Assembly: GCA_965197495.1 (NCBI GenBank)
Contig: OZ240210.1
Span: 2,876,671-2,940,670 of the forward strand
Source: Candidatus Marinacidobacterales bacterium
GTDB taxonomy: Bacteria > Acidobacteriota > Vicinamibacteria > Marinacidobacterales > SMYC01
Direction: 5' to 3'
Length of the DNA: 64,000 bases
A model generated the notes under the pieces. The model was not told where the DNA came from and did no database searches. It saw nothing but the letters and a program-made list of their open reading frames with translations. The position numbers were made by a program, and so were the translations under genes. Shown piece after piece: positions 3,140-62,421 of this stretch (the first letter of the stretch is position 1; each line of letters starts with the position of its first letter).

Positions 3140-3505
3140 TTGACAGTACCTCCGCGTGTTATTTGCTATCCGATGATGCTACGATCATCTCGTTATGCCC
3201 CGACGCAAGATACGTGTCCTTCTGGCTGGCTGGGTCAACCGCCAGCAGCAGGATGTGATCGACCACTTGCGAGAGGAGAACCGTGTGCTCCGAGCCGGGC
3301 TTCGGGGCAAGCGTCTCAGTCTCTCTGACGACGATCGGCGCAGGCTCGCCGTCAAGGCCCAGGCTTTGGGCCGCGAGGCGCTGGCCCAGATTGCGTCCGT
3401 TGCCACACCCGCTACGCTTCTGCGCTGGTACCGCTACCTCGTCGCAGCCAAGTACGATGGCAGCAAGAACCGGAGCCCAGGCCGACCTCCGAACGGCGAC
3501 GGAGG
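3140..3505 (+). pseudogene. 5' fragment (about 110 codons) of a diverged IS481-like transposase gene; no terminal IR and 3' truncated
   Basis: The stretch [33 protein letters not shown]...[26 protein letters not shown] is about 90% identical to the N-terminus of the intact transposase at 29578-30654, and homology ends near 3505. Confidence 0.7.
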
Positions 3506-3607
3506 GTCACCAGGGGCAGCGTGACGGAGCGGTTCAAGGCCGTCAAGAACGGGCAGGGGAACGACGATGAACGAGATTGAACCGCTCCGGGTTTTCCGGA
3601 GACTGTT

Positions 3608-3726
3608 TTAGTCGAGTCTCGCCATCTCTAGCGAGCCTTCCTGCGACCGATAGTAGTTCATCTCGTACTCGACGGGGGTGACATTTCCGATAGGCTCCAA
3701 GAGTCGTTGCGTGTTGTACCAATGCC
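3608..3726 (-). pseudogene. C-terminal tail (about 39 codons) of another rve-type (IS481/IS3-like) transposase, cut off by the IS481-like insertion at 3727
   Basis: The translation GHWYNTQRLLEPIGNVTPVEYEMNYYRSQEG* matches the conserved integrase C-terminal pattern (YN..R.H..L...TP.E...NYY). Upstream of it the frame runs into IR sequence. Confidence 0.5.
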
Positions 3727-5157
3727 CCCCGTCCTGTGCCAAAACTCGGCCCTTTTGAAATAGGCCATAAATCAGCAGCTTAGTGTCTGTGTTTGCGCCG
3801 GGGCCAAGGGCCGTAGGCTTTACAATCGTCTGGCCCGAGGGTGTTATCTTCAGCTCCATGATGACGTACCACGTGCAATTCCTACTGCTCGTTCTAGCTG
3901 GCTGGGTCAACCGCCAGCAGCAGGATGTGATCGACTACCAGCAAGAGGAGAACCGTGTGCTCCGAGCCGGGCTTCGGGGCAAGCGTCTCAGGCTCTCGGA
4001 CGACGAGCGGCGCAGGCTCGCGGTCAAGGCCCAGACTTTGGGCCGCGAGGCGCTGGCCCAGATTGCGTCCGTTGCCACACCCGCTACGCTTCTGCGCTGG
4101 TACCGCCACCTCATCGCAGCCAAGTACGATGGCAGCAAGAACCGGAGTCCAGGCCGACCTCCGACGGCGAAGGACATCCGTGAGCTCATTGTGCGCGTGG
4201 CGCGGGAGAACCCGACGTGGGGATATACGCGCCTGCGAGGCGCACTCAAGAACCTAGGACATGAACTCGGACGCAACACTATCAAGAGGATCCTCGCCGA
4301 GCACGTATCGCTCCTGCGCCGGAGCGGGGCAGGAGCATGTCGTGGAGCACCTTCATCAAGGCTCATTGGGGCGCCATCGCTGCGACAGACCTGTTCACCG
4401 TCGAGGTTGTGAACCCGTTCGGGCTCGTCCGCTACCATGTCCTGTTTGTCATCGATATCGCCACTCGCTGCGTGTGCATCGGTGGGATAACGTCGGACCC
4501 CAACGGGGAGTGGATGGAGCAGGTGGCAAGAAACCTCACTGACATGTGGGATGGTTTCCTCCTTGGCAAGCGATACCTCATCCACGACCGGGACCCGCTA
4601 TTCACCGAGGCGGTACGTGGGCTGTTGAGAGATTCAGGCGTGAAGCCCCTTCGCCTTCCCGCTAATAGTCCGAATCTGAACGCATATGCGGAAAGATTCG
4701 TTCTCTCCATACGTCGAGAGTGTCTCGACCGCTTCGTACCTCTCAGTGAGCGACACCTGCGCACAGCGGTACCGAATACGTAGTGCACTATCACACAGAA
4801 CGGAACCACCAAGGTCTCGGCAACGAGCTCCTCACACCTCTGCCGGCAAGCGCGAATGACGCTGGCCCCATCGTGTCGCGAGAGCGACTTGGGGGCATTC
4901 TCAACTACTACTGCCGTGCCGCGTAGATGGTCGCCGGCGACGGTAGCCCCTCGGCGGGCTCGACCGGCGTAGCGTGGAAACAGCTTCAGGAACACGCTTC
5001 GATATTCGCTCTCGACTAGGAGGTCATCTGCATGGTGACGACCCGCCCGCCCAAGACGATTGTAAAGCCCACGGCCCTTGGCCCGGTCGCAAACACAGAC
5101 ACTAAGTTGCTGATTTATGGCCTATTTCAAAAGGGCCGAGTTTTGGCACAGGACGGG
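3727..5157 (+). mobile_element. IS481-like element copy 1, about 1431 bp with roughly 110-bp near-perfect terminal inverted repeats; the transposase is inactivated by two 1-bp deletions
   Basis: It is co-linear and over 98% identical with the intact copy at 29453-30885. A G is lost near 4300 (gcacgtatcg vs gcacggtatcg) and an A near 4780 (gcggtaccgaat vs gcggtaaccgaat), which splits the ORF into 3783-4412, 4337-4783 and a downstream piece. Confidence 0.85.
3840..4925 (+). pseudogene. IS481-family DDE transposase gene with two frameshifts
   Basis: This is the comparison with the 381-aa ORF at 29509-30654 described above. Confidence 0.8.
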
Positions 5158-6705: not shown

Positions 6706-7007
6706 TCCTGTGCCAAAACTCAGCCCTTTTGAAATAGACCATAAATCAGCAGCTTAGCGACTGGGCCAAGGGCCCTTAGGCTCTACAGTTACCCAAAACC
6801 CGCGGTCGACGTTCGAGAGCCGCGGCCGTTTCACCGAACGGCGGAGGACGGCGAGCTGCTGCCGAAGAGCGACATTGTCGAGAGCCAGCTCGCGACGAGC
6901 CTTGAAGACGGAGATGAGAGCGCGAACAAACGACGAAATCAAGCAGGCATGGTGCCGGCAGACTAATCAAGTTTGGGGCGCCCGGATGAATAAATAGAAG
7001 GCACAGG
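6706..7007 (-). mobile_element. 302-bp MITE-like element with termini GTCCTGTGCC...GGCACAGG; its left subterminal 70 bp equals the IS481-like IR, and it carries a 62-codon relic of a transposase N-terminus
   Basis: Near-identical copies lie at 17105-17413 and 18503-18788. The internal ORF reads MISSFVRALISVFKARRELALDNVALRQQLAVLRR, an HTH-type transposase N-terminus. Confidence 0.7.
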
Positions 7008-7018
7008 CGGCAGAGGCG

Positions 7019-8041
7019 ATTCACGCCACTCGTGGCAGTACGCCGCGCCTGAACCAGAACGCGCTGGTGTTTCTTGCGGCCGACAAGGTGCGGCTTCAGG
7101 ATCTCGAGGACGCGATTCGCCGGTATCTGGCGTGGGAATCCATCGTTGAGGACAAGAAGGTCCTGAACCTGGACCAGCAGCAACTCAAGCAGGCCGAAGC
7201 CCAGCAGCAAGCGGCGAACGGTACTGCGACGGCACAACTGCCTGAGACGTATCAGTGGGTCCTCGTGCCCACGCAGCGTACGCCGCAGGAGGCCATGCAG
7301 TGGCAGGTACTGAGGCTCGGAGGTCAGGATCCGTTAGCAGTAAGGGCCTCGAAGAAGCTGCGTGCGGACGAGCTGTTGCTGACGAGTCTCGGGGCCACCG
7401 TGCCCAGAAAGTACCTGGACGACATTCCGCTGTGGCGTGGAAACCACGTTGACGTGCGCCAGCTCACCGAGGATTTCGCTCGCTACCTATATCTTCCGCG
7501 CTTGGCCGATAGCAAAGTACTCGTACGGACTATCGAAGACGGCATCGGATTGCTCACTTGGCAGACCGATACCTTCGGGTTCGCAGAGAGCTTTGACGAG
7601 ACCGATGTCCGGTACCGTGGTCTCCGTGGTGGGCAGGTCCTTAGGCTCGCTGCGGGTGCGTTGGGGATGCTCGTGAGACCAGACGCCGCGCACACACAAT
7701 TGGACGCCGAGGTTCTCCCCAGCAAACCGGAGACTGGCACGAGCCCACCCACGATACCGAGCACCGACAAGTCGCCGGTAGAGCCACTAGGCAAAGCTCC
7801 GGAGCGCCTGACGCGGTTTCATGGAACGGTGCGGCTTGCCCCTGCCCGCATCGGCCGGGATGCCGGCCGGATCGGCGAGGAGCTCATCGCGCATCTCTCG
7901 GGCCTTGTCGATGCAGACGTGCAGGTGACCCTAGAGATTGAGGCGCACATGCCAAATGGCGCGCCTGAGCAGGCCGTTCGGACCGTCACCGAGAACGCGC
8001 GGACACTGAAGTTCATGAGTCAAGGGTTCGAGAAGGAGTAG
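7019..8041 (+). pseudogene. C-terminal about 340 codons of a large DUF499-like (defence-island ATPase family) gene, 5'-truncated by the MITE at 6706-7007
   Basis: The frame is open from the MITE boundary (a stop lies inside the MITE end) and reads ...NQNALVFLAADKVRLQDLEDAIRRYLAWESIVEDKKVLNLDQQQLKQAEAQ...YQWVLVPTQ. The family assignment is from memory of DUF499 C-termini. Confidence 0.5.
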
Positions 8042-14015: not shown

Positions 14016-14886
14016 TCAACGATGCCGAGTGCAGACGACCCGGACCGAGCGTAGCGCTTGTAGTGCCTCGGTTGCGGACAGGTCGAGTTCGGCGACCTTG
14101 AGCTTTTTCTCAAGAGCCCGATGCACAAGGAAGGCCAGCGTAGCTACGAAAAGATGTGCCTCCACACGCTCATCGGTCTGGTGGTAAACGGGACGCATCT
14201 CAATGACATCCTTAAGGCATGAGAAGGCTCGCTCGACCTCGTTTAGGTCCTTGTAAAGACGCACGGCGTCGACCGGAGAGAGGTTTTGCTCCTCGGTTTG
14301 AATAACGTACTTTCTGTTCTTTGCGGGCATGCAGCTGGTCGAGCGTTCGGTACCATTGCTTGAGTTGGCGAAACTCCACGCGAACCCGCGGGGAGCGACT
14401 CGCTCGCCGTTCCCCATCATCGCGCCACTGCGGCACCCACCGCCGCCCCTGCCGGTCGCAGACGAAGTCGGTCTCGAGCCAGCGCGCCAGACCGTGCTCG
14501 CTTGACGGAGCACATAGCCGGTTGGCGACCAGCACCAAAGCTCGCTCGCTTAGCGCCACTCCGTCCCGCTTGCCGCGGCCCCCGAGCCGGTCGAGAATCT
14601 GCTCCAGCCCGAACTCGCGCCACAGCGTCGCCGTCACCAGCATCGGACCCCAATCCCACGCGTCTGCCCCCGCGACCTGCTCGGCTGCTCGCTCGGTGTC
14701 GGCCGGTTCACCGGCCCCAAGCAACCGATTGAGGGAGTCGAGATTGGCAACTAGGAGATCCTTGCGCCCCAAGTTGCACACTACGCGTTGCTTCGGCTTG
14801 CCGTGCTCCCGATACGACTCGACCAGGCGGACATACCCATGTTGAACCCCTTTGCCGCCTGCGGCCCGAACGATGCGGAAGAACAT
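14016..14886 (-). pseudogene. Internally deleted IS1634-family transposase, with its N-terminus at 14212-14886 and its C-terminus at 14016-14513 in another frame
   Basis: The N-terminus MFFRIVRAAGGKGVQHGYVRLVESYREHGKPKQRVVCNLGRKDLL and the C-terminus LYKDLNEVERAFSCLKDVIEMRPVYHQTDERVEAHLFVATLAFLV match IS1634 termini, but the central DDE region is missing. Confidence 0.6.
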
Positions 14887-15224
14887 AACCTGTCCTCACG
14901 CATACTACATATCATTGTCCACGATTACAACGTATTAATGGCGCTCAAAGCACAATCTCTGTCTCTACGTTTTGGGCGAAATTCAACCCCCGTTCCTTTG
15001 AATTCAGTCACTTACGAGCGTTAGGGTGCTCATAAAGGGTAAACATGGGTTAGTACCGGAACACAGCCCGTCTAAAAAGCGACGCACCGAGGCGAGCTCT
15101 TGCACCCGTATCCCGAACAGCGACTGCGCGTCATGACCCGAGGTAGGAGCCCAGTGCGTTAGCAGCGCTCGCTGGGATCTGTGCAGGGGGCCGCCCGTAA
15201 GGGCGGTCCCTACCGCGAACGACG

Positions 15225-15262
15225 TCGAGCTCGACGTACTACTTGCACCATACGGGTTCCCC
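15225..15262 (+). repeat. 37-bp direct repeat, copy 1, containing the 12-bp palindrome GTCGAGCTCGAC; copy 2 is at 16987-17023
   Basis: (a/g)tgtcgagctcgacgtacta(c/t)ttgcaccatacgggtt is present twice in the same orientation, 1.76 kb apart, bracketing the HNH nuclease gene. Confidence 0.75.
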
Positions 15263-15559
15263 CGCTGATGCTCAGAGTGCCGACTATAATAATGATGATG
15301 GACTCGCAACCGACCTCGCATCGCCCGACAGGGACCGCAACCCGCTGACCCGGGTCTCGTGCTGGGCGCGCGGGCCGAGGTCGCGGCGCCCATGTGCACA
15401 AGCGCCTGCTTACAAGTTTTTGGAATTGCGGGTCTTGAGTTCGTTTGTGTTCTTGGACACGACGGGTTCACGCGTGTGTCTGCCCGCTGCCGACGTGACT
15501 GATACAATGGGCCGATGCGACCCAACTCGCCGAGCTAGTAGCCAAGGACAATCGATTCA

Positions 15560-16486
15560 ATGACTGATAACGACCGTGATACCCAGATGCGAATGGCGGC
15601 TTTTGAGCACGTTCGAGAGCTGCACGAAGTCCACGATCAGCTGACCGCAAACGAGTTGAAACCAGGTTTTGTTTTCGACGGCGAGCGCATCCCTCTCATC
15701 AATCCGCAACGCGGCATTTTCAAGCCGCAGCAGATGCGGTTCTTGCTTTCGATCAAGACCGTATTCCCGAGACCGGGCAGCAAAATCTGGTACGACGATC
15801 AGCGCGAAGTTCACCGCCAAATATTTGAGGGTGACGAAACGGTGGATTACGCATTCATGGGAAGAAATCCAGAGGCTGCTGACAATCGCTGGCTGCGCCA
15901 AGCGTTCGAGAACCAAATACCGGTGATCTATTTTCTTGGCATCGCGCCCGGCCGCTACCAAGCTATGCTGCCAGCATTCGTTGCAGGGTGGGACGCCGAG
16001 GCATTAAAGGCGCGCGTTGCGTTTGGAGTGCTCGGTCAAGAAGCGCTGGCGCCACCGAAGAACGTCCTGGAACGGCGCTATGCTCTGCGTTCGGTCAAGC
16101 AACGATTGCACCAGGCATCGTTTCGAGAAGCTATCATCAGTGCCTATGACGGCCGCTGCGCACTATCGAGGATACCCGAACCACTGCTACTGGACGCGGC
16201 GCATATTGTTGCGGACAAGGATGAACGGCTTGGTCAACCGGTGATCCCCAACGGAATCCCACTATCGAAAATCCATCATGCTGCCTTCGACGCGCATTTG
16301 ATTGGCATTGACCCGGACTACCGCTTGCATGTCTCTGATCGACTGCTCGGCCAGAGCGACGGCCCCATGCTCGAAGCATTAAAACGGCTCAACGGTGGAA
16401 CCATTCACCTACCCAGCCGCGTCAAGGACCGACCGGATCGAGACCGGCTTGCGCTACGCTTCGACCGCTTCAAGGCGGTGGCGTGA
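15560..16486 (+). CDS. HNH-family nuclease of the putative restriction/type-IV class, with an HNH_2-like C-terminal domain and an N-terminal domain of unknown function
   Basis: RLHQASFREAIISAYDGRCALS...LLDAAHIVADKDERLGQPVIPNGIPLSKIHHAAFDAHLIGIDPDYRL fits the HNH_2 pattern (Q..FR..V...Y...CA..G...LE.aHI.p......N.l.L....H..FD...). Confidence 0.7.
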   Translation: MTDNDRDTQMRMAAFEHVRELHEVHDQLTANELKPGFVFDGERIPLINPQRGIFKPQQMRFLLSIKTVFPRPGSKIWYDDQREVHRQIFEGDETVDYAFMGRNPEAADNRWLRQAFENQIPVIYFLGIAPGRYQAMLPAFVAGWDAEALKARVAFGVLGQEALAPPKNVLERRYALRSVKQRLHQASFREAIISAYDGRCALSRIPEPLLLDAAHIVADKDERLGQPVIPNGIPLSKIHHAAFDAHLIGIDPDYRLHVSDRLLGQSDGPMLEALKRLNGGTIHLPSRVKDRPDRDRLALRFDRFKAVA

Positions 16487-16689
16487 GATGCCCGCCGTCG
16501 CTCAATGAGTAAGGTCAACTTGAACCAAGGTAAAGATGGTGCGGCGGTTGGCAGTCGACTTGATTGGGAGAGGAATACGAGAGGCTGAAGGCGCTGGAGA
16601 GCGCCAGTGCGGGAGAAAAAGACGAGAGGACAGGAAAGACCGATAGCGAATGATTGCGGACCACCTGATCGGCATCGAGCAGTTCGAGG

Positions 16690-16760
16690 CGGACCTCTCT
16701 CCACCTTACCCTTGGTCTTCGCACGATAAGGCCGACACGCACGGGCTCGGAACTGCCAGT
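16690..16760 (-). pseudogene. rve-integrase (IS21 IstA-like) fragment
   Basis: Only the short relic FAHHWQFRARACRPYRAKTKGKVER (..HYGF.PR.C.P..P.TKGKVE pattern) is present. Confidence 0.35.
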
Positions 16761-16986
16761 GATGCGCGAAGCGAACAAACTCCGGATTCTCGGCTAACGG
16801 GCCCAGCGTCGAGTGCCGCGAGCGACTCGGCGGCCTACTATCGTGCAGCTGCCTGAGTAGATACGTTCGAGTGCCGTCCAAGCCGCCCCGTGGGTTTCGT
16901 ATCGTCGTGGCATTGACCTCGGCTGGCGGCCCATCGAATCCTCGCTTCGCGCAGATCCGGTCATTGACCCTCCACAGGCCGATGTC

Positions 16987-17023
16987 GAGCTCGACGTACT
17001 ATTTGCACCATACGGGTTATTCG
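16987..17023 (+). repeat. 37-bp direct repeat, copy 2
   Basis: This is the repeat described under 15225-15262. Confidence 0.75.
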
Positions 17024-17104
17024 CCGGACGGCGGGGCGCGCCAGTTGGACGGAACGGATGGTCTGGAGGAGAGGTCTGCTCGGGGTCGCCTATCGCAGAA
17101 CCGC

Positions 17105-17413
17105 GTCCTGTGCCAAAACTCAGCCCTTTTGAAATAGACCATAAATCAGCAGCTTAGCGACTGGGCCAAGGGCCCTTAGGCTCTACAGTTACCCAAAACC
17201 CGCGGTCGACATTCGAGAGCCGCGGCCGTTTCACCGAACGGCGGAGGACGGCGAGCTGCTGCCGAAGAGCGACATTGTCGAGAGCCAGCTCGCGACGAGC
17301 CTTGAAGGCGGAGATGAGAGCGTGAACAAACGACGAAATCAAGCAGGCATGGTGCCGGCAGACCGGAGACTAATCAAGTTTGGGGCGCCCGGATGAATAA
17401 ATAGAAGGCACAG
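17105..17413 (-). mobile_element. MITE-like element, copy 2 (309 bp)
   Basis: It is over 97% identical to 6706-7007 and has the same embedded 62-codon ORF (17154-17342). Confidence 0.7.
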
Positions 17414-17469
17414 ACCGATTTGCGCTATCATGAATCAACCCAAGGCCATCGACCCGACACAATTTCCTC

Positions 17470-18189
17470 ATGAGTATGCTGCAGTCTTTTCAATGGTTGA
17501 CGCTTGCTATCACCGCGGTCGGGGTCGTGGGTTGCAGTTCCTCCATGTCCCCATCCTCGACCACGGAACCCGAGTCATCTCCACCGGCCGAGACTGCTGA
17601 ACCCGAGGCGAGAGCCGAGTACACCGTCACTTTCGATGCTTCCTGGAGTAAATCGACCCATCCCGAAGACTTTCCTCCCAACCCACACTTCTCCGGATTG
17701 ATCGGTGGCACGCACAACGACGACATTCGCTTCTGGATGCCCGGAAGGAAGGCGTCGGATGGGATCAAAGCCATGGCCGAAAGGGGTCTTAAAACCCCTC
17801 TCAACGAAGAGATTCGAGCGGCTCGCGACGAGGGAACGGCGGACAGGCTTCTTTCAGGTGATGGCATTCCTCGATCGCCTTCAAGCGTGTCTCTCGATTT
17901 CGCGATCCGGCGCGATTACACTCTGGTGACGTTGGTCTCGATGGTGGCACCGAGCCCCGATTGGTTCACCGGGGTTTCGGCCTTGAGCCTTCTCGAAGGA
18001 GGCCAATGGGTCGAGGAACTAACAGTGGAGCTCTTTGCTTACGACGCAGGCACGGACAGCGGAACGACTTACAACTCCGCCAACGATCCCACCTCACCTC
18101 GCGAGTCGATCCAGCGAATCGACGGACGTCCGCTTGCGGTTGGCGGCCAAGTCGCTCCGGTGGGGACCTTCACCTTTACTAGGCGCTAG
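17470..18189 (+). CDS. Spondin_N-domain lipoprotein
   Basis: It has a lipoprotein signal (LTLAITAVGVVGC) followed by YTVTFDASWSKSTHPEDFPPNPHFSGLIGGTHN, which is characteristic of the bacterial spondin_N domain. Confidence 0.6.
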   Translation: MSMLQSFQWLTLAITAVGVVGCSSSMSPSSTTEPESSPPAETAEPEARAEYTVTFDASWSKSTHPEDFPPNPHFSGLIGGTHNDDIRFWMPGRKASDGIKAMAERGLKTPLNEEIRAARDEGTADRLLSGDGIPRSPSSVSLDFAIRRDYTLVTLVSMVAPSPDWFTGVSALSLLEGGQWVEELTVELFAYDAGTDSGTTYNSANDPTSPRESIQRIDGRPLAVGGQVAPVGTFTFTRR

Positions 18190-18337
18190 GCTCACGCTTG
18201 GTGCGAGCGGGCCAGTCGGCAGGGACCGGTTTCATCGGACGACAAAACGCTGCAATCGTCGTGGTTTTGCTCATACCGACGGCGCAACTCCTCCACCGTT
18301 CGATCGATGTCGTCTCCAGCAACGCAGCAGAGTCCAT

Positions 18338-18400
18338 GCCCGTCGTGTCCAAAAACACAAACGAACTCAAGACCCACGCGCCGGGACGTTTCGGATTAGA
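18338..18400 (+). repeat. Short repeat A copy (cgtcgtgtccaaaaacacaaacgaactcaagacc...cgtttcggat)
   Basis: It is one of at least eight copies; the others are at 5662-5720, 15434-15466 (rc), 24323-24381, 33318-33375, 34010-34140 (rc, long form), 36803-36930 (long form) and 36962-37005. Confidence 0.7.
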
Positions 18401-18502
18401 GGTGTCTAGGCTTGGTTGTGCCTTCTATTTATTCATCCGCCAGCCCCATGGGTCGGAAGTCAGCCCTGCGGCGCGAAATACCCTGGATTCTGCGCGGATT
18501 CA

Positions 18503-18788
18503 TTTGAAATAGACCATAAATCAGCAGCTTAGCGACTGGGCCAAGGGCCCTTAGGCTCTACAGTTACCCAAAAACCCGCGGTCGACGTTCGAGAGCTGCG
18601 GCCGTTTCACCGAACGGCGGAGGACAGCGAGCTGCTGCCGAAGAGCGACATTGTCGAGAGCCAGCTCGCGACGAGCCTTGAAGGCGGAGATGAGAGCGCG
18701 AACAAACGACGAAATCAAGCAGGCATGGTGCCGGCAGACCGGAGACTAATCAAGTTTGGGGCCCGGATGAATAAATAGAAGGTACAGG
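18503..18788 (-). mobile_element. MITE-like element, copy 3, truncated at the left end; it lies next to an inverted fragment of the MITE right end at 18395-18440
   Basis: It aligns with 6728-7007, and ccttctatttattcatccgc at 18421 is the reverse complement of the MITE right end. Confidence 0.6.
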
Positions 18789-19229
18789 GCACTCAGGGCA
18801 CTACTCCCAGCGCGCATTCAAAGGTTGGAAGGGTGACGACGAGGTGATCGTCCCATGGAAAGGTTAACTAGTTCCTGTCCAGAAACACCATAACTTGTGG
18901 TGTGCGACAGGCCTACCGAAGATGTGGGTATTATACGGTTTCGGTAGGGAACTTCGTAGGGTTGAGAGCGAATGAAAATCTTGGACGAAACGAGAGGCGA
19001 ATCGTCAGGAATCCAAGGCTATGGGAGCGGAAGAGTAATAGTTATTATCTTGATAGATGTCTCGCCATCACCAGTAGATTGCAGGTGATGATGGAACCCC
19101 ATACGTACGATTTAAAAGAAGGCAATGAGCGCCATGTGCATCGGTCGAGACCAAAGACTCGTTTCAAGAACGAAATGACGCCTTCGATCCCGCAGCGAAA
19201 TCGCCGCAGGCGTTGATAGACCCAGGAAC

Positions 19230-19396
19230 TCTTGACCATATCGGGGCGCGTCCCAGTTCACAAGCTTGCCGGCGGTGAGCGAGATCCAGACGGTCAGGCT
19301 CCCGCGGTTGCGTAGACCCGCCTCATATTCACGCCAATTCCTCACGCGATAGGCCTTCTTCACATACTTCCGCTGAGTGCGTTTGAAAATGCTCAT
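19230..19396 (-). pseudogene. IS5-family transposase N-terminal fragment (about 55 codons)
   Basis: MSIFKRTQRKYVKKAYRVRNWREYEAGLRNRGSLTVWIS parallels the N-terminus of the intact IS5-family transposase at 37923 (KKYHVRNWAEYNEGLRRRGDLTVWF); downstream of it the sequence is unrelated. Confidence 0.6.
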
Positions 19397-19526
19397 GGGG
19401 AACCTCGAATCCGCGAGTACAGGACAATTGTGGACCTAGATCGCGAGTTGTGCACCAAGGCAGGGCGTTGTCGCCTTCGCCGCCGCCGTCGTCCCATTCG
19501 ACCGCGAACCAGTCCTGATCGTCCGC

Positions 19527-19616
19527 ACTTACGGCCCTTGGCCCGGCCGCAAACACGGACACTAAGCTGCTGATTTATGGTCTATTTAAGAGGGCCGAGT
19601 TTTGGCACAGGACGGG
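19527..19616 (-). repeat. Solo IS481-like terminal IR (about 90 bp) abutting the stop codon of the CotH gene
   Basis: ggcccttggcccggccgcaaacacggacactaagctgctgatttatggtctatttaagagggccgagttttggcacaggacggg is the IR, and no transposase lies to its left. Confidence 0.7.
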
Positions 19617-19621
19617 CTCGG

Positions 19622-22015
19622 TTAATCTCGTTCCCAAGTCCCGTATTCGTTCAGAGCACTCCATTCGTCGCCCCGCCGTGAACGTCCCTTGAGATTAGGA
19701 GAGAAAGGAACCGTCGAAACGGCTTCGCTGAAACTGTGTGCCGTGGGGTTCCGTGGGTCGCTTCCATCGAGGGTGTAGTAGACCTTTTCCGCTCCCGCCG
19801 GGCGACGGATGGTGATGCTGTCAGAAGCTCGCTCGAACCCCGGCGGGTCGATGGTAGGATAGTAACCATGGTTTCGAAGTGCCCGAATGAACTTTTCGAC
19901 ATTCCCGTCCATCAAGCCTAGAACGTAGTCCCGCGCTCGCTTCCAATGCACATCCCGCGTGCGGGGACGATTCTCCCGTCCAGGGGCTGCGTCGCCCCAC
20001 CGGGCCGACTCACAAAGCATCGCCGGCTCCACATAGTCCGCTAGCCTCCGAAAATTGGTTTGGTTTACATGGTCTGCAAGGGGGCCGCCATCGTAGCAAG
20101 CACGATAGACGTGATCCGCGAACTCCAGCCGGAACTCTGGGCTGTCCGCCAAAGCCATCCATAGTTGGTGTAACGCGGACGTTCCGCCGGACACGAAACT
20201 TGGCGGAACCCAAGCCCCCGCGTGCCCGTATTTATGAGAGTAGAGCCCGTAGGTTATCTCCGCATCCCAGCAGAAATACAGTCCGGCACCAGGAGGGTGA
20301 ATCCGAATCCCTCCGTACCAATTTTGCTTTCCCCAATCTCCCATGCCGGAAAACCAATTCAGCAGGATGTAGTCGCTGAACTGGGCCGTATTCAATAGGG
20401 TTTTCATCTCCTGGTACTTTGCGGGCTCCGAGAGATCATTGTCACGCGCATAACGGTAGACGGTGATATACCAGCGCGGGTGGTTCGGCTTGCCGACTAC
20501 GCCAGAATGGTTGATAGCAAACCAGTCAGCCGAGTCACCACCATAGTACGAAGCGAGAAAACGCCGGTCCGGACGCTCCACCGCGTTGTATACGCCCCAG
20601 TAAATCCCGTTCAGGTAGAGATGCACAAAAATGCCGCGCGCGGCGTTATCGCTCAAAGAAAGCTGCGAGTCCCGAACGTGTTGGTCGCGGACATAGACCG
20701 CCAACTCGCTGATATCGCCTCTTCTCGACCAGTTTTCTTGCCCACCTGCCCGCAGAACGATGGTGTTGAACTCCTTCACTGCAGATTCGGCATGGTGCAC
20801 GGCGCTCTCGAAAAAGGGGTATCTCAACATTCCCGGACCGAAGTCTTTGCTGAAGACTAGGCGGAACGATCGCTTTTCCTCGGGAAACGTCTGACTATGC
20901 GCTCTAATTCCGCAATCGACCTGGAAGCCCTCGAAGTCCGAAAACTTGCTCGGGTAGAGGAGCTCAACCGAGGCGGGACGGGTTGGTGGACCCTTATCAA
21001 TGTAGAGCCCGTAGCTCTCATTAAAGAGGTGGTCCCCATCCATGACGATGGAGAGGGTGGGAATCGATGTCAGTCCTTCCACGAACTCCAGCTGGTTGCT
21101 CGTATTCACAACATCGGGATCGATCTCGATGTCGAGATCTGCGTACGGAGCCATATTGGAGGAGCGAAACGGGGCCGGATAATCGAATGGCAGAGCCGCC
21201 TGCTCCTTCACCGTGGTCGGAAATATATAGGTATGGGTGTCGACGTTCGTGCTCCTCGCACCAGCTTTGTACGCTATGGCCCGAAGGACGGTCGTTTTAG
21301 CCACAAGAACCTTGTTGCCGACGATTCCATGACTCACGCTCGGCTTACTGCCGTCGGTGGTATAGACGATCGTTGCGCCGGGAGTGGCGGTGGTGAGGAT
21401 CACTTCGAAAGGGGTCTCATAGAAGCCGCGGTCGTGGCTGAACTTCGTATCGCCTACTGAGTGCGTCCGGCCGGTTCGGCGATGCCAATCATTGAAGAAC
21501 TCGACCGATTGCCCAACCGGTTGTGCAGGGGCGCTCGCAAGAAGAACCGGCTCTCCCCAAACCGGAACCAGTGACTGCCGATGCACCGCGCCCGAGGCGT
21601 CCAGCACAGGCCGTGCCGTGAAGCTCAGCGAGACCGTTCTCCCCTCCCACGGAGTGAGATCAATCATGCGGTCGTTCCAACGATTCCCCTCCTGTGCAGC
21701 AAGGGTCTCGCGAAACGCGCGGCTCCGCTTGTCATCGACGTCGATCTCGATCAGGAACTCTGTCTCGGGCAGACCGGCACTGGGTGTGCCTAATACGGCC
21801 ATCGAGAATTGGAGCACGGCGTTCTGCGGTACCTTTAGCGGGGACACCCACGTCGAGCCGTCCAACGCTGTTCGGGACTTTCCTTCCAACTCCACTTCCC
21901 TGGAAGGCTGAGAAGGATCGAGAAGGGAAACAGGGCGCGTTCTCGGTAAGTCGCTGCAAGCCGCTGCGGATGCTAGGAGCATCAGGACGACCAGCGTGTC
22001 GGTTCGTCTCCCCAT
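19622..22015 (-). CDS. CotH-family protein (CotH kinase-like fold) with a lipoprotein-type signal peptide and a chitobiase/hexosaminidase-C-like beta domain
   Basis: The likely start is MGRRTDTLVVLMLLASAAACSDL; the ORF-track start at 22417 adds 134 low-quality codons. It contains the CotH motifs VHLYLNGIYWGVYNAVE, FSDYILLNWFSGMGDWGKQNWYGGIRIHPPGAGLYFCWDAE and ATIVYTTDGSKPS. Confidence 0.65.
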   Translation of the reverse strand: MGRRTDTLVVLMLLASAAACSDLPRTRPVSLLDPSQPSREVELEGKSRTALDGSTWVSPLKVPQNAVLQFSMAVLGTPSAGLPETEFLIEIDVDDKRSRAFRETLAAQEGNRWNDRMIDLTPWEGRTVSLSFTARPVLDASGAVHRQSLVPVWGEPVLLASAPAQPVGQSVEFFNDWHRRTGRTHSVGDTKFSHDRGFYETPFEVILTTATPGATIVYTTDGSKPSVSHGIVGNKVLVAKTTVLRAIAYKAGARSTNVDTHTYIFPTTVKEQAALPFDYPAPFRSSNMAPYADLDIEIDPDVVNTSNQLEFVEGLTSIPTLSIVMDGDHLFNESYGLYIDKGPPTRPASVELLYPSKFSDFEGFQVDCGIRAHSQTFPEEKRSFRLVFSKDFGPGMLRYPFFESAVHHAESAVKEFNTIVLRAGGQENWSRRGDISELAVYVRDQHVRDSQLSLSDNAARGIFVHLYLNGIYWGVYNAVERPDRRFLASYYGGDSADWFAINHSGVVGKPNHPRWYITVYRYARDNDLSEPAKYQEMKTLLNTAQFSDYILLNWFSGMGDWGKQNWYGGIRIHPPGAGLYFCWDAEITYGLYSHKYGHAGAWVPPSFVSGGTSALHQLWMALADSPEFRLEFADHVYRACYDGGPLADHVNQTNFRRLADYVEPAMLCESARWGDAAPGRENRPRTRDVHWKRARDYVLGLMDGNVEKFIRALRNHGYYPTIDPPGFERASDSITIRRPAGAEKVYYTLDGSDPRNPTAHSFSEAVSTVPFSPNLKGRSRRGDEWSALNEYGTWERD

Positions 22016-22602
22016 CAAGTGTTGCGAGCTTATCAAACGCGCGTTTCTAAATGCTAGGCCAAGGGCGTGGCAAAGAGCAAAAAAGAGCGGGCTATTTTGC
22101 GAGTTTTGCAAGTCACTCCAAGAGGCCGGCCCTCGGAGGGGTTCCGTCGCATGCGCGGGGGAGATAGACCGGGTGGCGCCGACAGGCGCAAAGAAGCCAT
22201 AGGGGGCGTAACGTCCGACCGTTGTCGACGCCGGACGCGGCCCTGCTTGCTGGCCTCCCAGCTGGCCGGCGTGGACAGCGAGACCGCTGCTGTCGATCAA
22301 GATGTGCAACGGCGTCTTCTGCTTGTCCTGCGCGTACGGGGACCCCGAATCGCCGGCCACAACGTCACCCTCCCAGGGTATTGGTGTCACCTCGTTCGAA
22401 TGGGCGAGGATCTCCACGACCGCCTAGGGGCAGCCCTGGTGTTCAGAACAATAGGCCGGATATTCGAAAACAATCGCAAGAGCGAGCCTCTCCAACATTC
22501 ATAAGACGCCGGTGGCATCGTCAGGTCGACCGGTACGGAAAATCCGACGTGGCAGGTCTAAACCGCGCAATCAACGCTGGATCGACTTTTTGCGGAGCAC
22601 AG

Positions 22603-23582
22603 TTTACTGGGGCGTATATAACGCGGTGGAGCGTCCGGATCGGCGTTTTCTCGCTTCGTACTATGGTGGTGACTCGGCTGACTGGTTTGCTATCAACCAT
22701 TCCGGCGTAGTCGGCAAGTCGAACCACCCGCGCTGGTCTGTCACCATGTACCGTTATGCGCGTAAGCATGACCTCTCGGAGCCCGTAAAGTACCGGGAGA
22801 TGAAAACCCTATTGAATACAGCCCAGTTCAGCGACTACATCCTGCTGAATTGGTTTTCCGGCATGGGGGATTGGGGGCGAAAGAATTGGTACGGAGGGAT
22901 TCGGATTCACCCTCCCGGTGCCGGACTGTATTTCTGCTGGGATTCGGAGATGACCTACGGACTCCTCTATAATAAAGGGCACGCGGGGGCTTGGGTTCCG
23001 CCCGAGTTCGTGTCGGGCGGAACGTCCGTGCTACACCAACTATGGATGGCCTTGGCGGATAGCCCAGAGTTCCGGCTGGAGTTCGCGGATCGCGTCTACC
23101 GCGCCTGCTACAATGGCGGTCCCCTCGCGGACCATGTAAACCAAACCAATTTTCGAAAGCTAGCGGACTACGTGGAAGCGGCGATGTTTTGTGAGTCTGC
23201 CCGCTGGGGCGACGCGGGCCACGGAAGGGAGAATCGTCCCAGCACGCGGGATGTGCATTGGAAGCGGGCGCGGGACTATGTTCTAGATTTGATGGACGGA
23301 AACGTCGAAAGGTTCATTCGAGCACTTCGGGACCATGATTACTATCCCACGCTCGACCCGCCGGTGTTCGAACGAGCTTCTAACAGCATCACTATCCGAC
23401 GCCCGGTGGGAGCGGAAAGGGTCTACTACACCCTTGATGGAAGTGACCCACGAAACTCCACGGCACACAGTTTCAGCGAAGCCGTTTCGACGGTTCCTTT
23501 CTCTCCCAATCTCAAGGGACGTTCAAGGCGTGGCGACGAGTGGAGTGCATTGAACGAATACGAGACTTGGGAACGAGATTAA
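22603..23582 (+). pseudogene. Inverted partial paralog (C-terminal about 326 codons) of the CotH gene; no start codon and the 5' region is unrelated
   Basis: It is about 90% aa-identical to the C-terminal third of 19622-22015 (YWGVYNAVERPDRRFLASYYGG ... NEYETWERD*), and its stop is likewise followed by CCGAGCC plus an IS481-like IR. Confidence 0.7.
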
Positions 23583-23590
23583 CCGAGCCG

Positions 23591-23765
23591 GTCCTGTGCC
23601 AAAACTCGGCCCTTTTGAAATAGACCACAAATCAGCAGCTTAGTGTCTGTGTTTGCGACCGAGCCAAGGGGCGTGGGCCTTACAATCGTCTGGCCAAAGG
23701 GTGTTATCTTCAGATCTATGATGACGTACCACGTGCCATTCCTACTGCTCGTTCTGGCTGGTGAC
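23591..23765 (+). repeat. IS481-like left end (IR plus the first about 25 codons of the transposase), with no body beyond about 23765
   Basis: gtcctgtgccaaaactcggcccttttgaaatagaccacaaatcagcagcttag...ATGATGACGTACCACGTGCCATTCCTACTGCTCGTTCTGGCTGG is followed by unrelated sequence. Confidence 0.65.
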
Positions 23766-59950: not shown

Positions 59951-61081
59951 TTGAATCTTCGAAGCCTTTTTCTTCTCTGCGCGTTGTGCCTCTCGCTCCC
60001 GGGGGCGGCCATGCAGAACGAGGAGCCCGCAGTCGAAGAAAAGAAAAATCCGTTATTTCTACGATTGGCCTTTCAGCCGGGGTGGGTGGCGACCACGTCC
60101 GATTTCCTCGCGGGCGACAACCAGGCGGGCGAGCCGATCGAACATATCCAGGCGTTCAAAGTCGAGCTCGGCTGGCAAACGGACGGCGCCAAGGATTGGG
60201 AGCAGCGTTATCGACTTCCCGCTCTCGGGCTCGGCGTCTACAAGGCGAGCTTCGAAAACGGCAAAGAGCTCGGCGCGCCCGTGGCGCTCTATGGTTGGTT
60301 CACCTGGCCCATTTTCAACGTGACCCGCAAGCTCGACGTCACGACGGATTTGAGTTTCGGTGCGGCGTTCAACTGGAAACCGTTCGACCCCGAAGTAAAT
60401 CCGGCGAATGACGCGGTCAGCACGCGGGTGACGTTCTTCACCGAGTGGGGGCTCCTAGCGCGCTACGCGTTGACGCCCAGGCTCGACTTGATGGCGGGTG
60501 GGATGTTCACGCATTTCTCGAACGGAGGAGCGGGCTTCCCCAACCTTGGCGTCAACGCGCTGACGCCGATCGTCCGCGTCGGCTATCACTTCCAAAACGA
60601 CCGCCCTCGCTACGTCCCCCGAGACCTTCCGCCGTTCGAGCCGTTCTGGGAGATGACGCTTGCGGGAGGTGCGGGGTGGAAGAACGTCGCGCTCGAGGAA
60701 GAGCGGGAATACTTCGGCGTCTTTGCCGCGACTTTCGAGCTCGGACGTCACGTCTCCAGCATGGGGAAGCTCGTGGGCGGCGCCGATTGGACCTACGACG
60801 ACGCGGCCAATGCGGGCCTCGACGAGGTCTCGAGCTCGGACAAACTGGCGGTCGGTCTGTTCGGCGGCTACGAGCACCTGATTGGCCGCTTCTCCATCCC
60901 TTTCTCGGTCGGTTACTATATTGCTCGAGGCCGTGAAGACGACCGGCTCCCAGCGCTCTACCAAAAGATCGGCTTGAAATATCACGTCACCGACAGACTA
61001 TTCGTCGGTCTAAAAATGCGGTTCTACAACTTCACTAAAGCGGACTTCGTCGAGTGGACCCTGGGCTACGACTTCCCGTAG
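59951..61081 (+). CDS. PagL-like lipid A deacylase / acyloxyacyl-hydrolase-family outer-membrane beta-barrel; probable TTG start
   Basis: It has a signal peptide NLRSLFLLCALCLSLPGAA and the HxSNG-type catalytic block FTHFSNGGAG. The ORF-track start at 59648 overlaps the preceding gene. Confidence 0.45.
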   Translation: MNLRSLFLLCALCLSLPGAAMQNEEPAVEEKKNPLFLRLAFQPGWVATTSDFLAGDNQAGEPIEHIQAFKVELGWQTDGAKDWEQRYRLPALGLGVYKASFENGKELGAPVALYGWFTWPIFNVTRKLDVTTDLSFGAAFNWKPFDPEVNPANDAVSTRVTFFTEWGLLARYALTPRLDLMAGGMFTHFSNGGAGFPNLGVNALTPIVRVGYHFQNDRPRYVPRDLPPFEPFWEMTLAGGAGWKNVALEEEREYFGVFAATFELGRHVSSMGKLVGGADWTYDDAANAGLDEVSSSDKLAVGLFGGYEHLIGRFSIPFSVGYYIARGREDDRLPALYQKIGLKYHVTDRLFVGLKMRFYNFTKADFVEWTLGYDFP

Positions 61082-61092
61082 GGTCAAGATAT

Positions 61093-62177
61093 TCATGCGG
61101 CTTCCCGATGGTAGAAACGGAGCAACCCGCCAAGCCGTTCACGGCACTGAATGGCGCCCTCTAGACCGTTAGTCTGAGCGATCGCGGACTCGGGGAACAA
61201 TAAGAGATTGTCCTTGCCTTGATGATTCCTCTCGTGGTGATAATGGGTGACGTACTCCTTCAGCGCGTGACGCAGCGAGTTCTCCCCGAACAAGATGAGC
61301 TTCGAGAGACATTCCTCTTTGACCGATCTCACCCAGCGCTCCGCGAACGCATTCAAATCCGGGCTCCGCGCGGGCAGCCTGATAGGCGTCACGCCAACGC
61401 CCTCAATGGTGTCCCGGAACGACTCGCAGAACTTGGAGTCCCGGTCGTGGATGAGATATCGGCTCGAGGAGAGAAAACCGATATCGGCCATGGTCACGTT
61501 GCGGGCCACTTGAATCATCCACGGTTCGTTCGGATGCGGCGTGATGCCGGCGATGTGGACGCGCCGGGTCGCGAGGTGCATGAAGAACAGAACGTAGTAC
61601 GTCACCAGCCCACCCTGAGTCCACACCTCCGCGGTGAAGAAGTCCGTCGCTGCAAGGACGTCCATATGCGAGCGGATGAACTCCGTCCAGGTGGTGGCCT
61701 TCTTTCGCTCAGGGGCAGGCGGTATGCCGTGACGTCTCAGAATGTTGCCGACGGTTTGGTCACTCACCTCATGCCCGAGCTTGGCTAACGCCCCGGCAAT
61801 CCGGTCGTAACCCCAGGACTTGTTCTCCTGGGCAAGACGCACCACCAACTCTTCGATGTCAGCGTCGACACGCGGCCGCCCTGGGTATTGACGGTTCTTA
61901 GAGCCGTCGAACTTCTTCGCCACAAGCCTCCGGTGCCAGCCCAGGAGCGTCTCGGGCTTCACAATATTCGCTACCACTTCGAGCGCCCGCTTGCCGAGAC
62001 GCTTTCCGATTTCAGCCAGTGTCCGCCGTTCGCCATCGGTCAAGCGCAAGCGACCCTTGATCTGATCCGAAGAATCCGATTCTCGACCACAAGATATTCG
62101 TTCCGCAGGAGAAGCTCCTCGTCCACGGATCCTGAGATATAGGCCAGCATGGTCTTCCAGTCCATCGCGACTCCTTC
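61093..62177 (-). pseudogene. IS481-family transposase, lineage 3 (about 60% identity to the 29578 copy), with a frameshift near 62040-62050
   Basis: The N-terminal 46 codons ([33 protein letters not shown]) at 62177-62040 continue as ...[19 protein letters not shown] in another frame. The rest has an intact DDE/rve signature (IHDRDSKF...YHHERNHQG). Element ends are at about 61085 and about 62400. Confidence 0.7.
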
Positions 62178-62421
62178 CGAAGGACTGGAATACCTATCCG
62201 ACAGGAAGGGTCGATTCAACCGGTCCGCGGGTCCGCGGATCCTGCTGACCCGGTTGTCGTTCGAGTATCTTGACCCTACGGGAATGTGAAGTCGCTCGGG
62301 GCGTAGAACGGTGTTGCCCTCGAGGTTGCCGGTCTTCTGGGTTGCTGAGGTGAAGGCCTCTGTTTCCAAGAAGAGCCCCGCCTTCGTCGGACGTGTTTCG
62401 ATGTGACTACGGCAGGTAACT

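What the first reader, a model, noticed from the sequence alone, without database searches (positions are those of the whole stretch)
15223..17023. HNH_2-type nuclease gene carried between 37-bp direct repeats that embed a perfect 12-bp palindrome
The 308-aa protein at 15560-16486 has the C-terminal HNH_2 signature (Q..FR..V...Y...CA..G, then AAHIV...NGIPLSKIHHAAFD). Putative type-IV or stand-alone restriction nucleases share that signature, and here it is attached to an N-terminal domain of about 160 aa that I cannot assign. The gene, together with 300 bp upstream and 500 bp downstream, is bracketed by two same-orientation copies of (a/g)TGTCGAGCTCGACGTACTA(c/t)TTGCACCATACGGGTT at 15225-15262 and 16987-17023; the repeat contains the palindrome GTCGAGCTCGAC. 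Direct repeats of this length flanking a single defence-type gene suggest attL/attR of a small integrative cassette or a recombination hotspot. The upstream non-coding region 14930-15230 is GC-rich with a strong hairpin (gggccgcccGTAAgggcggtccc) just before the first repeat, which could be a structured RNA or a binding site.
Basis: partly seen in the sequence, partly recalled or inferred. Interest (0 to 1): 0.6.

Follow-up and report, generated by a model that had tools for sequence, protein, structure and literature searches.

The report
Restriction gene between two transposon-end relics
The two 39-base repeats are leftover ends of a common jumping-gene (insertion sequence) family, not the borders of a gene cassette, and the gene between them is an ordinary modified-DNA-sensing restriction nuclease in a defence region wrecked by insertion sequences.

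Summary
It brackets an intact 308-aa HNH_2 gene (15560-16486).

The motif occurs 35 times in seven related 'Candidatus Marinacidobacterales' genomes, and none of those 34 loci encodes an HNH homolog. In all 40 copies the right flank diverges immediately after ...CCATACG. The left flank is mobile-element DNA: the 3' or 5' end of IS481-like transposase genes, or a group II intron 3' end. So the motif is the outermost ~35 nt of an IS481-like element.

In the closest relatives (99-100% identical protein) the HNH gene has only the upstream copy and is followed by an intact type I hsdM-hsdS-hsdR operon. In the window hsdM stops after 48 nt, replaced by stacked IS fragments. One of these carries repeat copy 2.

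The 'strong hairpin' is domain VI of a truncated group II intron.

The parts
15560..16486 (+). Intact 308-aa SRA-HNH gene, predicted to be a type IV modification-dependent restriction endonuclease. The SRA-like domain spans about residues 1-160, a long linker helix 169-195, and the HNH_2 domain about 196-308.
15220..15258 (+). Repeat copy 1. The 35-nt core is CGACGTCGAGCTCGACGTACTACTTGCACCATACG (15220-15254). It is a relic of an IS481-like terminal repeat, here abutted on its inner side by a group II intron 3' end.
   Evidence: The same junction is present in relatives L002, L004 and L005.
16980..17018 (+). Repeat copy 2. It is the outer end of the 'group A' IS481-like right-end fragment.
16799..17018 (+). 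Group A fragment: the last codons of an IS481-like transposase pseudogene ([14 protein letters not shown]..., with an internal deletion), then its 3' tail, ending in the motif.
   Evidence: It matches 20 or more other loci over 56-387 nt, all anchored at the motif end. Translation of the longer copies gives ...[16 protein letters not shown]...[17 protein letters not shown].
15100..15219 (+). The 3'-terminal ~120 nt of a group II intron. Domain V is at 15146-15180 and domain VI, with a GUAA loop, at 15181-15216.
   Evidence: 96.7-97.5% identical to the 3' ends of two complete intron copies in L005. Those copies carry a TIGR04416 RT/maturase (E = 3.4e-100 and 8.6e-112) and Rfam RF02005 D1-D4 (179 bits). 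The intron/exon boundary is read. The fold shows two hairpins, the first with the 2-nt bulge typical of domain V.
15428..15466 (-). Solo terminal repeat of another multi-copy IS family of the window, the 'D9 type' (CCCGTCGTGTCCAAAAACAC...).
16650..16698 (+). A 48-nt 5' stub of the type I methyltransferase gene hsdM. The rest of hsdM-hsdS-hsdR is missing.
   Evidence: Window 15148-16698 aligns at 98-99% identity with L004, L005 and L002. There a 704-aa HsdM starts at the equivalent position and HsdS and HsdR follow.
16696..16804 (-). A 109-nt internal fragment of an IS21-family istA gene.
   Evidence: 99% identical to istA of intact IS21 copies in L041 and L045. NCBIfam IS21 transposase E = 9.4e-10.
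17034..17413 (+). More IS debris. 17034-17099 is the 3' tail of another IS481-like element. 17100-17413 is the end of the 'D4 type' IS family.
14016..14886 (-). IS1634-family transposase pseudogene, in two broken frames.
   Evidence: NCBIfam transpos_IS1634 E = 1.2e-26 and 7.1e-8, both below the family cut-off.
61068..62290 (-). Reference element elsewhere in the window: a near-complete IS481-like IS with 19-bp terminal inverted repeats (TTCCCGTAGGGTCAAGATA). It shows the uninterrupted form of the site into which a motif-ended element is inserted in L026 and L051.

Best explanation
The two repeats are independent relics of the same kind of insertion-sequence end. They happen to lie in the same orientation on either side of a stand-alone restriction gene.

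The 35-nt core (CGACGTCGAGCTCGACGTACTAYTTGCACCATACG) is the outermost terminal repeat of an IS481-like (rve/DDE transposase) IS family. That family is abundant, and now decayed, in this acidobacterial ('Candidatus Marinacidobacterales') lineage.

Copy 2 is the tip of a 220-nt right-end stump of such an IS. It is one piece of a stack of IS fragments (IS21 istA piece, IS481-like stump, further IS ends). That stack replaced the type I restriction-modification operon that follows the HNH gene in close relatives.

Copy 1 is an older solo end upstream of the gene. A group II intron later homed against its inner edge. Only domains V and VI of that intron survive, and they are the 'hairpin'.

The gene itself encodes an SRA-HNH enzyme. 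By analogy with TagI and ScoA3IV, the N-terminal SRA domain would flip out and bind a modified cytosine in incoming DNA, and the C-terminal HNH domain, working as a dimer, would cut nearby. That makes it a type IV defence nuclease needing no partner methyltransferase.

Shown:
- the dispersal and one-sided conservation of the motif;
- the IS and intron identities;
- the truncation of hsdM;
- the SRA and HNH folds.

Inferred:
- the order of insertion events;
- that the motif is the IS's own terminal repeat, since no intact copy was found;
- the modification dependence of the enzyme.
For: 1. Dispersal. A scan of one genome per species found 35 exact matches in 34 loci, all in seven 'Ca. Marinacidobacterales' MAGs, with up to 9 per chromosome. 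tblastn finds no HNH homolog in any of these 8-kb loci.

2. One-sided conservation. In all 40 oriented copies the sequence diverges immediately after ...CCATACG. The other side falls into a few families.
- About 22 'group A' copies share 56-387 nt anchored at the motif. These encode the C-terminus of an IS481-like transposase...[17 protein letters not shown].
- Eight 'group B' copies run from the motif through ~150 nt to the start of an IS481/IS3-like transposase, MDWKTML....

3. Filled versus empty site. Group B copies sit inside the 3' end of another IS481-like transposase gene (flank GGGTTGCTCCGTTTCTACCATCGGGAAGCCGCATGA). The uninterrupted form of that gene is in the window at about 61093-61140. 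The motif therefore arrived as the tip of inserted DNA.

4. Resemblance to other IS ends. The motif read inward matches the window's two other multi-copy IS terminal repeats in ungapped register: 20/37 and 18/37. Shuffles give 9.2 +/- 2.5, P about 8e-5. Those two repeats match each other at 20/37.

5. Relatives. L002, L004 and L005 (protein 99-100% identical) have one motif copy only, upstream, and HNH is followed by hsdM-hsdS-hsdR. Homology to the window ends at 16698, 48 nt into hsdM.

6. Junk map. IS21 istA piece at 16696-16804. Group A stump at 16799-17018. Intron 3' end at 15100-15219.

7. Protein.
- Structure.
- Published SRA-HNH enzymes: TagI in PMC6212794 (title and abstract); ScoA3IV and its homologs in PMC6765204.
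- Defence-island contexts.
Against: - No intact element with the motif at both ends was found. No inverted copy lies within 8 mismatches in any held locus. The closest transposase relatives are only short ORF fragments.
- At least five different sequences abut the motif at the same inner boundary (+/- 4 nt), and identity drops abruptly there. That is also what a preferred insertion site inside an older IS end would give.
- Target-site duplications could not be checked.
- The source genome itself was not among the genomes scanned, so its own copy number is unknown.
- Modification dependence of the enzyme is inferred from fold only. Sequence similarity to TagI and VcaM4I is confined to the HNH part.
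Confidence: 0.85

Rival explanations
1. The motif is not the terminal repeat of the elements seen next to it. It is a 31-35-nt stub of an older IS end whose palindrome (GACGTC / GTCGAGCTCGAC) is a preferred insertion site. Several IS481-like elements, and via their ends a group II intron, have inserted at that point again and again. The two window copies would still be IS debris, but the motif would act as a target, not as a transposase-binding end.
For: - Groups A, B, C/L012, L015, L022 and D all change sequence at the same inner edge of the motif, within 4 nt. Identity falls from 35/35 to unrelated sequence.
- Just inside that edge, groups A and B each carry a second sequence resembling the 19-bp terminal repeat of the window's near-intact IS (ATCGACCCTCCACAGG and TATATTGACCAGACG against TATCTTGACCCTACGG).
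- In L005 the intron family sits exactly after such an IS end.
- IS481-family elements are known, from my own knowledge, to prefer short palindromic targets.
Against: - No motif copy has unique, non-mobile DNA on both sides. The right flank is always unique and the left always mobile DNA.
- The group A tail from stop codon to motif end, about 165 nt, matches the length of the stop-to-end tail of the related D9-type element in L026, which ends in its own ~37-nt repeat.
- The full motif aligns in register with the other IS terminal repeats.
Confidence: 0.12
2. The repeats are attL/attR of a small integrative cassette, or the ends of a mobile unit that carries the HNH gene as cargo. The segment can excise or move as a unit.
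For: - Two same-orientation 39-nt repeats bracket a single defence gene.
- The HNH gene is found in many contexts. An identical protein (P0007) lies on 23 contigs in at least six different neighbourhoods, which share only about 1.25-1.56 kb around the gene.
- 39 nt of identity could support rare homologous deletion (inference).
Against: - No integrase or recombinase lies between the repeats.
- There are 35 motif copies elsewhere, with no HNH gene in any of those loci.
- The nearest relatives have the gene with one copy only.
- Copy 2 is continuous with 180 nt more of IS sequence that recurs with it elsewhere.
- Other HNH copies (L003, L041-L046) lack the motif entirely, and their shared segment has different boundaries.
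Confidence: 0.02
3. The palindrome-containing motif upstream of the gene is a regulatory operator or promoter element of the HNH-hsdMSR operon. The second copy would be a duplicated regulatory site.
For: - Copy 1 lies 300 nt upstream of the gene and is conserved with it in L002, L004 and L005.
- It contains a 16-nt perfect palindrome of the kind bound by dimeric regulators.
Against: - The same sequence occurs 35 times in unrelated contexts.
- L003 keeps a 98% identical gene with only 78 nt of shared upstream sequence and no motif.
- An IS terminal-repeat fragment (15428-15466) separates the motif from the gene.
Confidence: 0.01

Closest known systems
TagI / ScoA3IV (Sco5333) family of SRA-HNH modification-dependent restriction endonucleases (PDB 6ghs; PMC6212794, PMC6765204)
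   Same: - Same two-domain order and size: about 300 aa, with an N-terminal SRA fold, a linker helix and a C-terminal HNH domain.
- The HNH part aligns by profile with TagI and VcaM4I.
- It sits in defence-island contexts.
   Different: - There is no detectable sequence similarity in the SRA domain, so it belongs to a separate clade.
- In some genomes it sits directly beside a type I R-M operon. The published screen found PUA-superfamily nucleases rarely near methyltransferase genes (PMC6765204).
- Specificity is untested.
IS481-family insertion sequences (rve DDE transposase, terminal inverted repeats)
   Same: - The motif adjoins IS481/IS3-like transposase gene ends at the expected distances.
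- It has a sharp outer boundary with unrelated flanks.
- It resembles the terminal repeats of the other IS481-like families in the window.
   Different: - No complete copy with both ends was recovered, and no target duplication was seen.
- The repeat is long (~35 nt) and contains a perfect 12-16-nt palindrome.
Bacterial group II introns residing in mobile DNA (Rfam RF02005 class, TIGR04416 RT/maturase)
   Same: The segment 15100-15219 is about 97% identical to the 3' ends of complete introns in a related contig. It folds into domain V and domain VI hairpins.
   Different: - Only the last ~120 nt remain in the window, so it is non-functional.
- Rfam found no intron family in 14800-17200.
attL/attR of integrative elements, or integron attC cassettes
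   Same: Direct repeats bracket a single accessory gene, and a palindrome lies within the repeat.
   Different: - There is no recombinase.
- The repeat is dispersed and unlinked to the gene.
- Relatives carry the gene with a single copy.
- The repeat is conserved on one side only, as for a transposon end.

Membership tests
SRA-HNH type IV restriction endonucleases (TagI / ScoA3IV) | C-terminal HNH (beta-beta-alpha-metal) nuclease domain with conserved catalytic His/Asn/His | tested here: met
   Pfam HNH_2 E = 1.9e-9, above the cut-off. PADLOC HNH E = 1.6e-23. H215, N231, H239 and H240 are at least 90% conserved in 67 homologs. The profile aligns to the HNH domains of VcaM4I (E = 6.2e-5) and TagI (E = 0.0079).
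SRA-HNH type IV restriction endonucleases (TagI / ScoA3IV) | N-terminal SRA (PUA-superfamily) fold | tested here: met
SRA-HNH type IV restriction endonucleases (TagI / ScoA3IV) | Cleavage depends on modified cytosine (5mC/5hmC) bound in a flipped-base pocket | not testable with these tools
   This needs enzyme assays on modified and unmodified DNA. Pocket residues were not analysed.
SRA-HNH type IV restriction endonucleases (TagI / ScoA3IV) | Sequence-level relatedness of the sensor domain to characterised members | tested here: not met
   phmmer against PDB sequences found nothing relevant. The profile search aligned only the HNH region of TagI and VcaM4I. This is the same architecture in a different clade.
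Integrative cassette bounded by attL/attR | A site-specific recombinase encoded in or beside the element | tested here: not met
   Between the repeats the only ORF with a Pfam or NCBIfam match is the HNH gene. The neighbours are transposase fragments.
Integrative cassette bounded by attL/attR | The repeat is specific to the element: two copies when present, one at empty sites, otherwise absent | tested here: not met
   There are 35 copies in seven related genomes, with no HNH homolog in any of those loci. Relatives with the gene have a single copy.
IS481-family insertion sequence terminal repeat | Lies at the outer edge of DNA encoding an rve/DDE transposase, in the right orientation and distance | tested here: met
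   In group A the transposase 3' end lies about 165 nt from the motif end. In group B the transposase start lies about 150 nt inside the motif.
IS481-family insertion sequence terminal repeat | Sharp boundary with unrelated flanking DNA in different copies, and a filled versus empty site | tested here: met
   All 40 copies diverge right after ...CCATACG. The group B insertion lies within another IS's transposase 3' end, and the intact form of that gene is at window ~61093-61140.
IS481-family insertion sequence terminal repeat | An inverted copy at the other end of the same element, plus a target-site duplication | tested here: not met
   No inverted copy lies within 8 mismatches in any locus. 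Only decayed fragments of the cognate transposase were found. This could mean the family is extinct, or that the rival 'target stub' reading holds.
Group II intron (3' remnant at 15100-15219) | Homology to complete introns with an RT/maturase and D1-D4 ribozyme, a domain V/VI fold, and a 5' GUGCG in full copies | tested here: met
   96.7-97.5% identity to the 3' ends of two L005 introns. TIGR04416 E = 3.4e-100 and 8.6e-112, RF02005 179 bits. 5' GTGCG and the 3' boundary are read. Rfam itself gave no hit on the remnant.

The most novel reading that the evidence does not exclude
The most novel reading still open has two possible forms.

First form: the palindrome-bearing 35-nt module is a specific landing pad. 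Several IS481-like elements, and a group II intron that homes to their ends, would repeatedly use it.

Second form: the SRA-HNH gene is being spread around these IS-saturated genomes as cargo attached to a single IS end (one-ended mobilisation). An identical protein occurs on 23 contigs in at least six contexts. Five of the six shown contexts share the same left boundary at an IS terminal repeat but have different right boundaries.

Either would be a small addition to IS biology and to how defence genes move. Neither would be a new kind of system.
Probability: 0.12. Interest if true: 0.4.

Novelty: new member of a known kind. Interest (0 to 1): 0.15.

Why it matters
It matters little beyond annotation. 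The region can be labelled as follows:
- an intact SRA-HNH (TagI-like) type IV restriction gene;
- the remains of a type I R-M operon destroyed by insertion sequences;
- a group II intron stump;
- two solo IS ends.

The case is a useful caution. In IS-saturated genomes, short direct repeats around a defence gene are more likely transposon debris than attachment sites.

The protein family is very large: 7223 clusters at 50% identity have E <= 0.001. Members are over 80% identical between Acidobacteriota, Alphaproteobacteria and Pirellulaceae. Its SRA domain is not recognised by sequence models, so a biochemical test of its specificity would annotate thousands of genes.

Tried and rejected
- Rfam on 14800-17200 at E <= 5 found nothing. 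The intron identity came instead from homology to full copies in L005.
- phmmer of the protein against PDB sequences gave no relevant hit. Pfam, NCBIfam and PADLOC did not assign residues 1-175. Only structure prediction plus a fold search did.
- I first read the 16405-16881(-) ORF as showing that the motif was an IS21 end. I rejected this because the IS21 piece is a separate 109-nt fragment (16696-16804) abutting the group A stump.
- I first read group A as a left IS end with a start codon 'MDGTRTYLL'. I rejected this once the opposite strand translated to a transposase C-terminus.
- I considered an integron attC. There is no R''/R' core-site pairing by eye and no one-sided conservation would be expected, so I did not pursue it.
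- The search for an intact motif-ended IS found none. There was no inverted copy in the held loci. Homolog searches with the transposase C- and N-terminal fragments returned only short ORFs of 31-147 aa. The look-up of P0416 gave another truncated copy. The JGI metagenome scan gave 0 matches.
- I looked for a second motif copy downstream of hsdR in L004, which would have made the whole HNH plus type I island repeat-flanked. There is none.
Full report
**1. Observation**

The sequence holds a 39-nt direct repeat at 15220-15258 and 16980-17018.
- Copy 1 is CGACGTCGAGCTCGACGTACTACTTGCACCATACGGGTT. Copy 2 differs at two positions.
- A 35-nt pattern allowing 3 mismatches finds only these two places in the window, and none in 100 shuffles.
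- GTCGAGCTCGAC is in both copies. In copy 1 the palindrome is 16 nt long.
- The ORF 15560-16486 (+) encodes 308 aa, with Pfam HNH_2 at residues 200-251 (E = 1.9e-9).
- The hairpin GGGCCGCCC-GTAA-GGGCGGTCCC is at 15188-15210.

- The repeat coordinates are about 5 nt too high.
- 14930-15230 is not GC-rich (57.1% against 59.5% for the window).
- The palindrome is not an unusually stable hairpin.

**2. Surroundings**

The window is saturated with dispersed repeats and IS ends.

Around the gene:
- Upstream are IS1634-type transposase pseudogene fragments at 14016-14886 (-).
- A solo terminal repeat of another multi-copy IS family lies at 15428-15466.

Downstream of the gene, homology to the closest relatives ends at 16698. 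That is 48 nt into what is, in those relatives, a 704-aa hsdM gene followed by hsdS and hsdR. After 16698 the window has, in order:
- a 109-nt piece 99% identical to istA of intact IS21 copies (16696-16804);
- a 220-nt block ending in repeat copy 2 (16799-17018);
- a piece of another IS481-like tail (17034-17099);
- the end of yet another IS family (17100-17413).

So the type I R-M operon has been replaced by stacked IS debris, and repeat copy 2 belongs to that debris.

**3. The repeat elsewhere**

The relatives L002, L004 and L005 (protein 99-100% identical) carry one copy only, upstream of HNH. None lies after hsdR. L003 has a 98% identical gene with no copy at all.

A scan of one genome per species with a 24-nt core gave 35 matches in 34 loci. 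All are in seven 'Candidatus Marinacidobacterales' MAGs, with up to nine per chromosome. No HNH homolog is encoded in any of those loci.

**4. What the repeat is**

I oriented all 40 copies alike. The sequence after ...CCATACG is different in every case. The other side is mobile-element DNA and falls into groups.
- Group A has about 22 copies, including window copy 2. It shares 56-387 nt anchored at the motif. It translates to the C-terminus of an IS481-like transposase (...[12 protein letters not shown]...[17 protein letters not shown]), followed by a ~165-nt tail that ends in the motif.
- Group B has eight copies. It runs from the motif through ~150 nt to the start of an IS481/IS3-like transposase.
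- Group B copies are themselves inserted inside the last codons of another IS481-like transposase gene. The flank encodes ...[12 protein letters not shown]. The uninterrupted version of that gene is present in the window at about 61093-61140. This filled-versus-empty comparison shows that the motif is the tip of inserted DNA, ending exactly at ...CCATACG.
- Read inward, the motif aligns without gaps to the terminal repeats of the window's two other multi-copy IS families (20/37 and 18/37). That is as well as those two align to each other (20/37). Shuffles give 9.2 +/- 2.5.

I therefore take the motif to be the ~35-nt terminal repeat of a now-decayed IS481-like family.

There are caveats.
- No intact copy with both ends was recovered.
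- Several different sequences meet the motif at the same inner edge.
- The alternative, that it is the stub of an older IS end which later elements target, stays open at about 0.12.
- Either way it is transposon debris, not an attachment site.

**5. The hairpin**

Window 15100-15219 is 96.7-97.5% identical to the 3' ends of two tandem, complete group II introns in L005.
- Those introns have RT/maturase genes (TIGR04416, E = 3.4e-100 and 8.6e-112), Rfam RF02005 D1-D4 (179 bits) and a 5' GTGCG.
- The intron ends at ...CCGCGAA, which corresponds to window position 15219. That is exactly at the inner edge of repeat copy 1.
- Folding gives a 35-nt hairpin with the 2-nt bulge typical of domain V (15146-15180).
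- In L005 the intron sits directly after the outer end of an IS481-like element, so this intron family appears to home to IS ends.
- Rfam did not recognise the remnant by itself.

**6. The protein**

The family is very large and unusually conserved.
- 6586 of 8000 scored candidates have E <= 0.001. The top 120 are all at least 81% identical, and the few with a source name are from Alphaproteobacteria and Pirellulaceae.
- 7223 clusters at 50% identity have E <= 0.001.

Sequence models assign only the C-terminal HNH part. An AlphaFold2 model from 67 diverse homologs is confident (pLDDT 95.3, pTM 0.89).
- Foldseek ranks the SRA-HNH enzyme TagI first for the whole chain (E = 1.3e-6).
- The profile aligns to the HNH domains of VcaM4I and TagI.

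This is the architecture of the published SRA-HNH modification-dependent endonucleases (PMC6212794; PMC6765204, read). By analogy, the SRA domain senses a flipped modified cytosine and the HNH dimer cuts nearby. That step is inferred, not shown.

Gene contexts are typical defence islands.
- Type I R-M in L004 and L005, and in Aquamicrobium soli (L040).
- A methyltransferase-HNH fusion gene and a reverse transcriptase gene with an adjacent STM3845-family gene (L003).
- A Qat system (L048).
- A GmrSD island (L049).
- DUF1156/DUF499 and SIR2 genes (L050).

**7. Verdict**

The repeats and the gene are real. The cassette interpretation is refuted. The region is a defence locus eroded by insertion sequences. 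The gene is a new, uncharacterised clade member of a known enzyme architecture. Interest is low.

Noticed in passing
window 62422-62771 (-): A tmRNA gene (Rfam RF00023, 173 bits, full length). A near-complete IS481-like element begins about 130 nt downstream of it.
   Followed up: partly
window 61068-62290 (-): A near-intact IS481-like IS with 19-bp terminal inverted repeats. Its transposase is split by a one-base frame change after the N-terminal ~33 codons. All 95 database homologs of that N-terminal segment are separate short ORFs (31-83 aa). The split may therefore be a programmed frameshift or a general feature of the family, not decay.
   Followed up: partly
window 17100-17413 and 18477-18788, bracketing 17470-18189: A Spondin_N-domain gene (Pfam E = 9.2e-48) lies between two direct copies (93-98% identical) of a ~290-310-nt IS end fragment. 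This is the same 'gene between direct repeats' picture as the finding, again made of IS ends.
   Followed up: no
L041-L046 (gene at 7001-7927 in each): An identical HNH protein (P0007, 92% identical to the window's) is on 23 contigs in at least six different neighbourhoods. These share only 1.25-1.56 kb around the gene. Five of the six have the same left boundary at the outer end of a 'D4-type' IS terminal repeat, but their right boundaries differ. This may be IS-end-driven spread of the gene, or repeated IS disruption of one ancestral locus.
   Followed up: partly
L005 3264-7290 (-): Two complete group II introns lie in tandem, the second starting exactly where the first ends. The upstream one is inserted directly after the outer end of an IS481-like element. 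The downstream one lies about 110 nt upstream of a second hsdM gene, where the HNH gene sits in the other locus of the same contig.
   Followed up: partly
L040 6103-7957 and L048 5073-6924: In two Alphaproteobacteria (Aquamicrobium soli and a Rhizobiaceae MAG) the HNH gene comes as a tandem pair of HNH_2 paralogs (306 aa plus 307 or 318 aa). In one case the pair follows a type I R-M operon and in the other a Qat system.
   Followed up: no
window 19585-20604 and 22603-23619: A ~1-kb inverted repeat (89-92% complementary) whose arms are about 2 kb apart. It overlaps a 931-aa ORF (19622-22417, -).
   Followed up: no
window 3217-5157 and 29450-30884: A ~1.4-kb element is present twice at 99-100% identity, with 117-120-nt terminal inverted repeats. 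It is probably a recently active IS.
   Followed up: no
window 15050-15104: A 55-nt stretch is 98-100% identical to an internal part of a large serine recombinase gene in L043 and L046. It is one more orphan fragment in the mosaic upstream of the HNH gene.
   Followed up: no
window 19377-19462 versus L003 6945-7030: In L003 the sequence right after the HNH gene continues, at 95% identity, with what lies about 2.9 kb further on in the window. This suggests that 16504-19376 of the window corresponds to DNA lost or never present in L003: in other relatives the type I operon, in the window now IS debris plus the Spondin_N gene.
   Followed up: no
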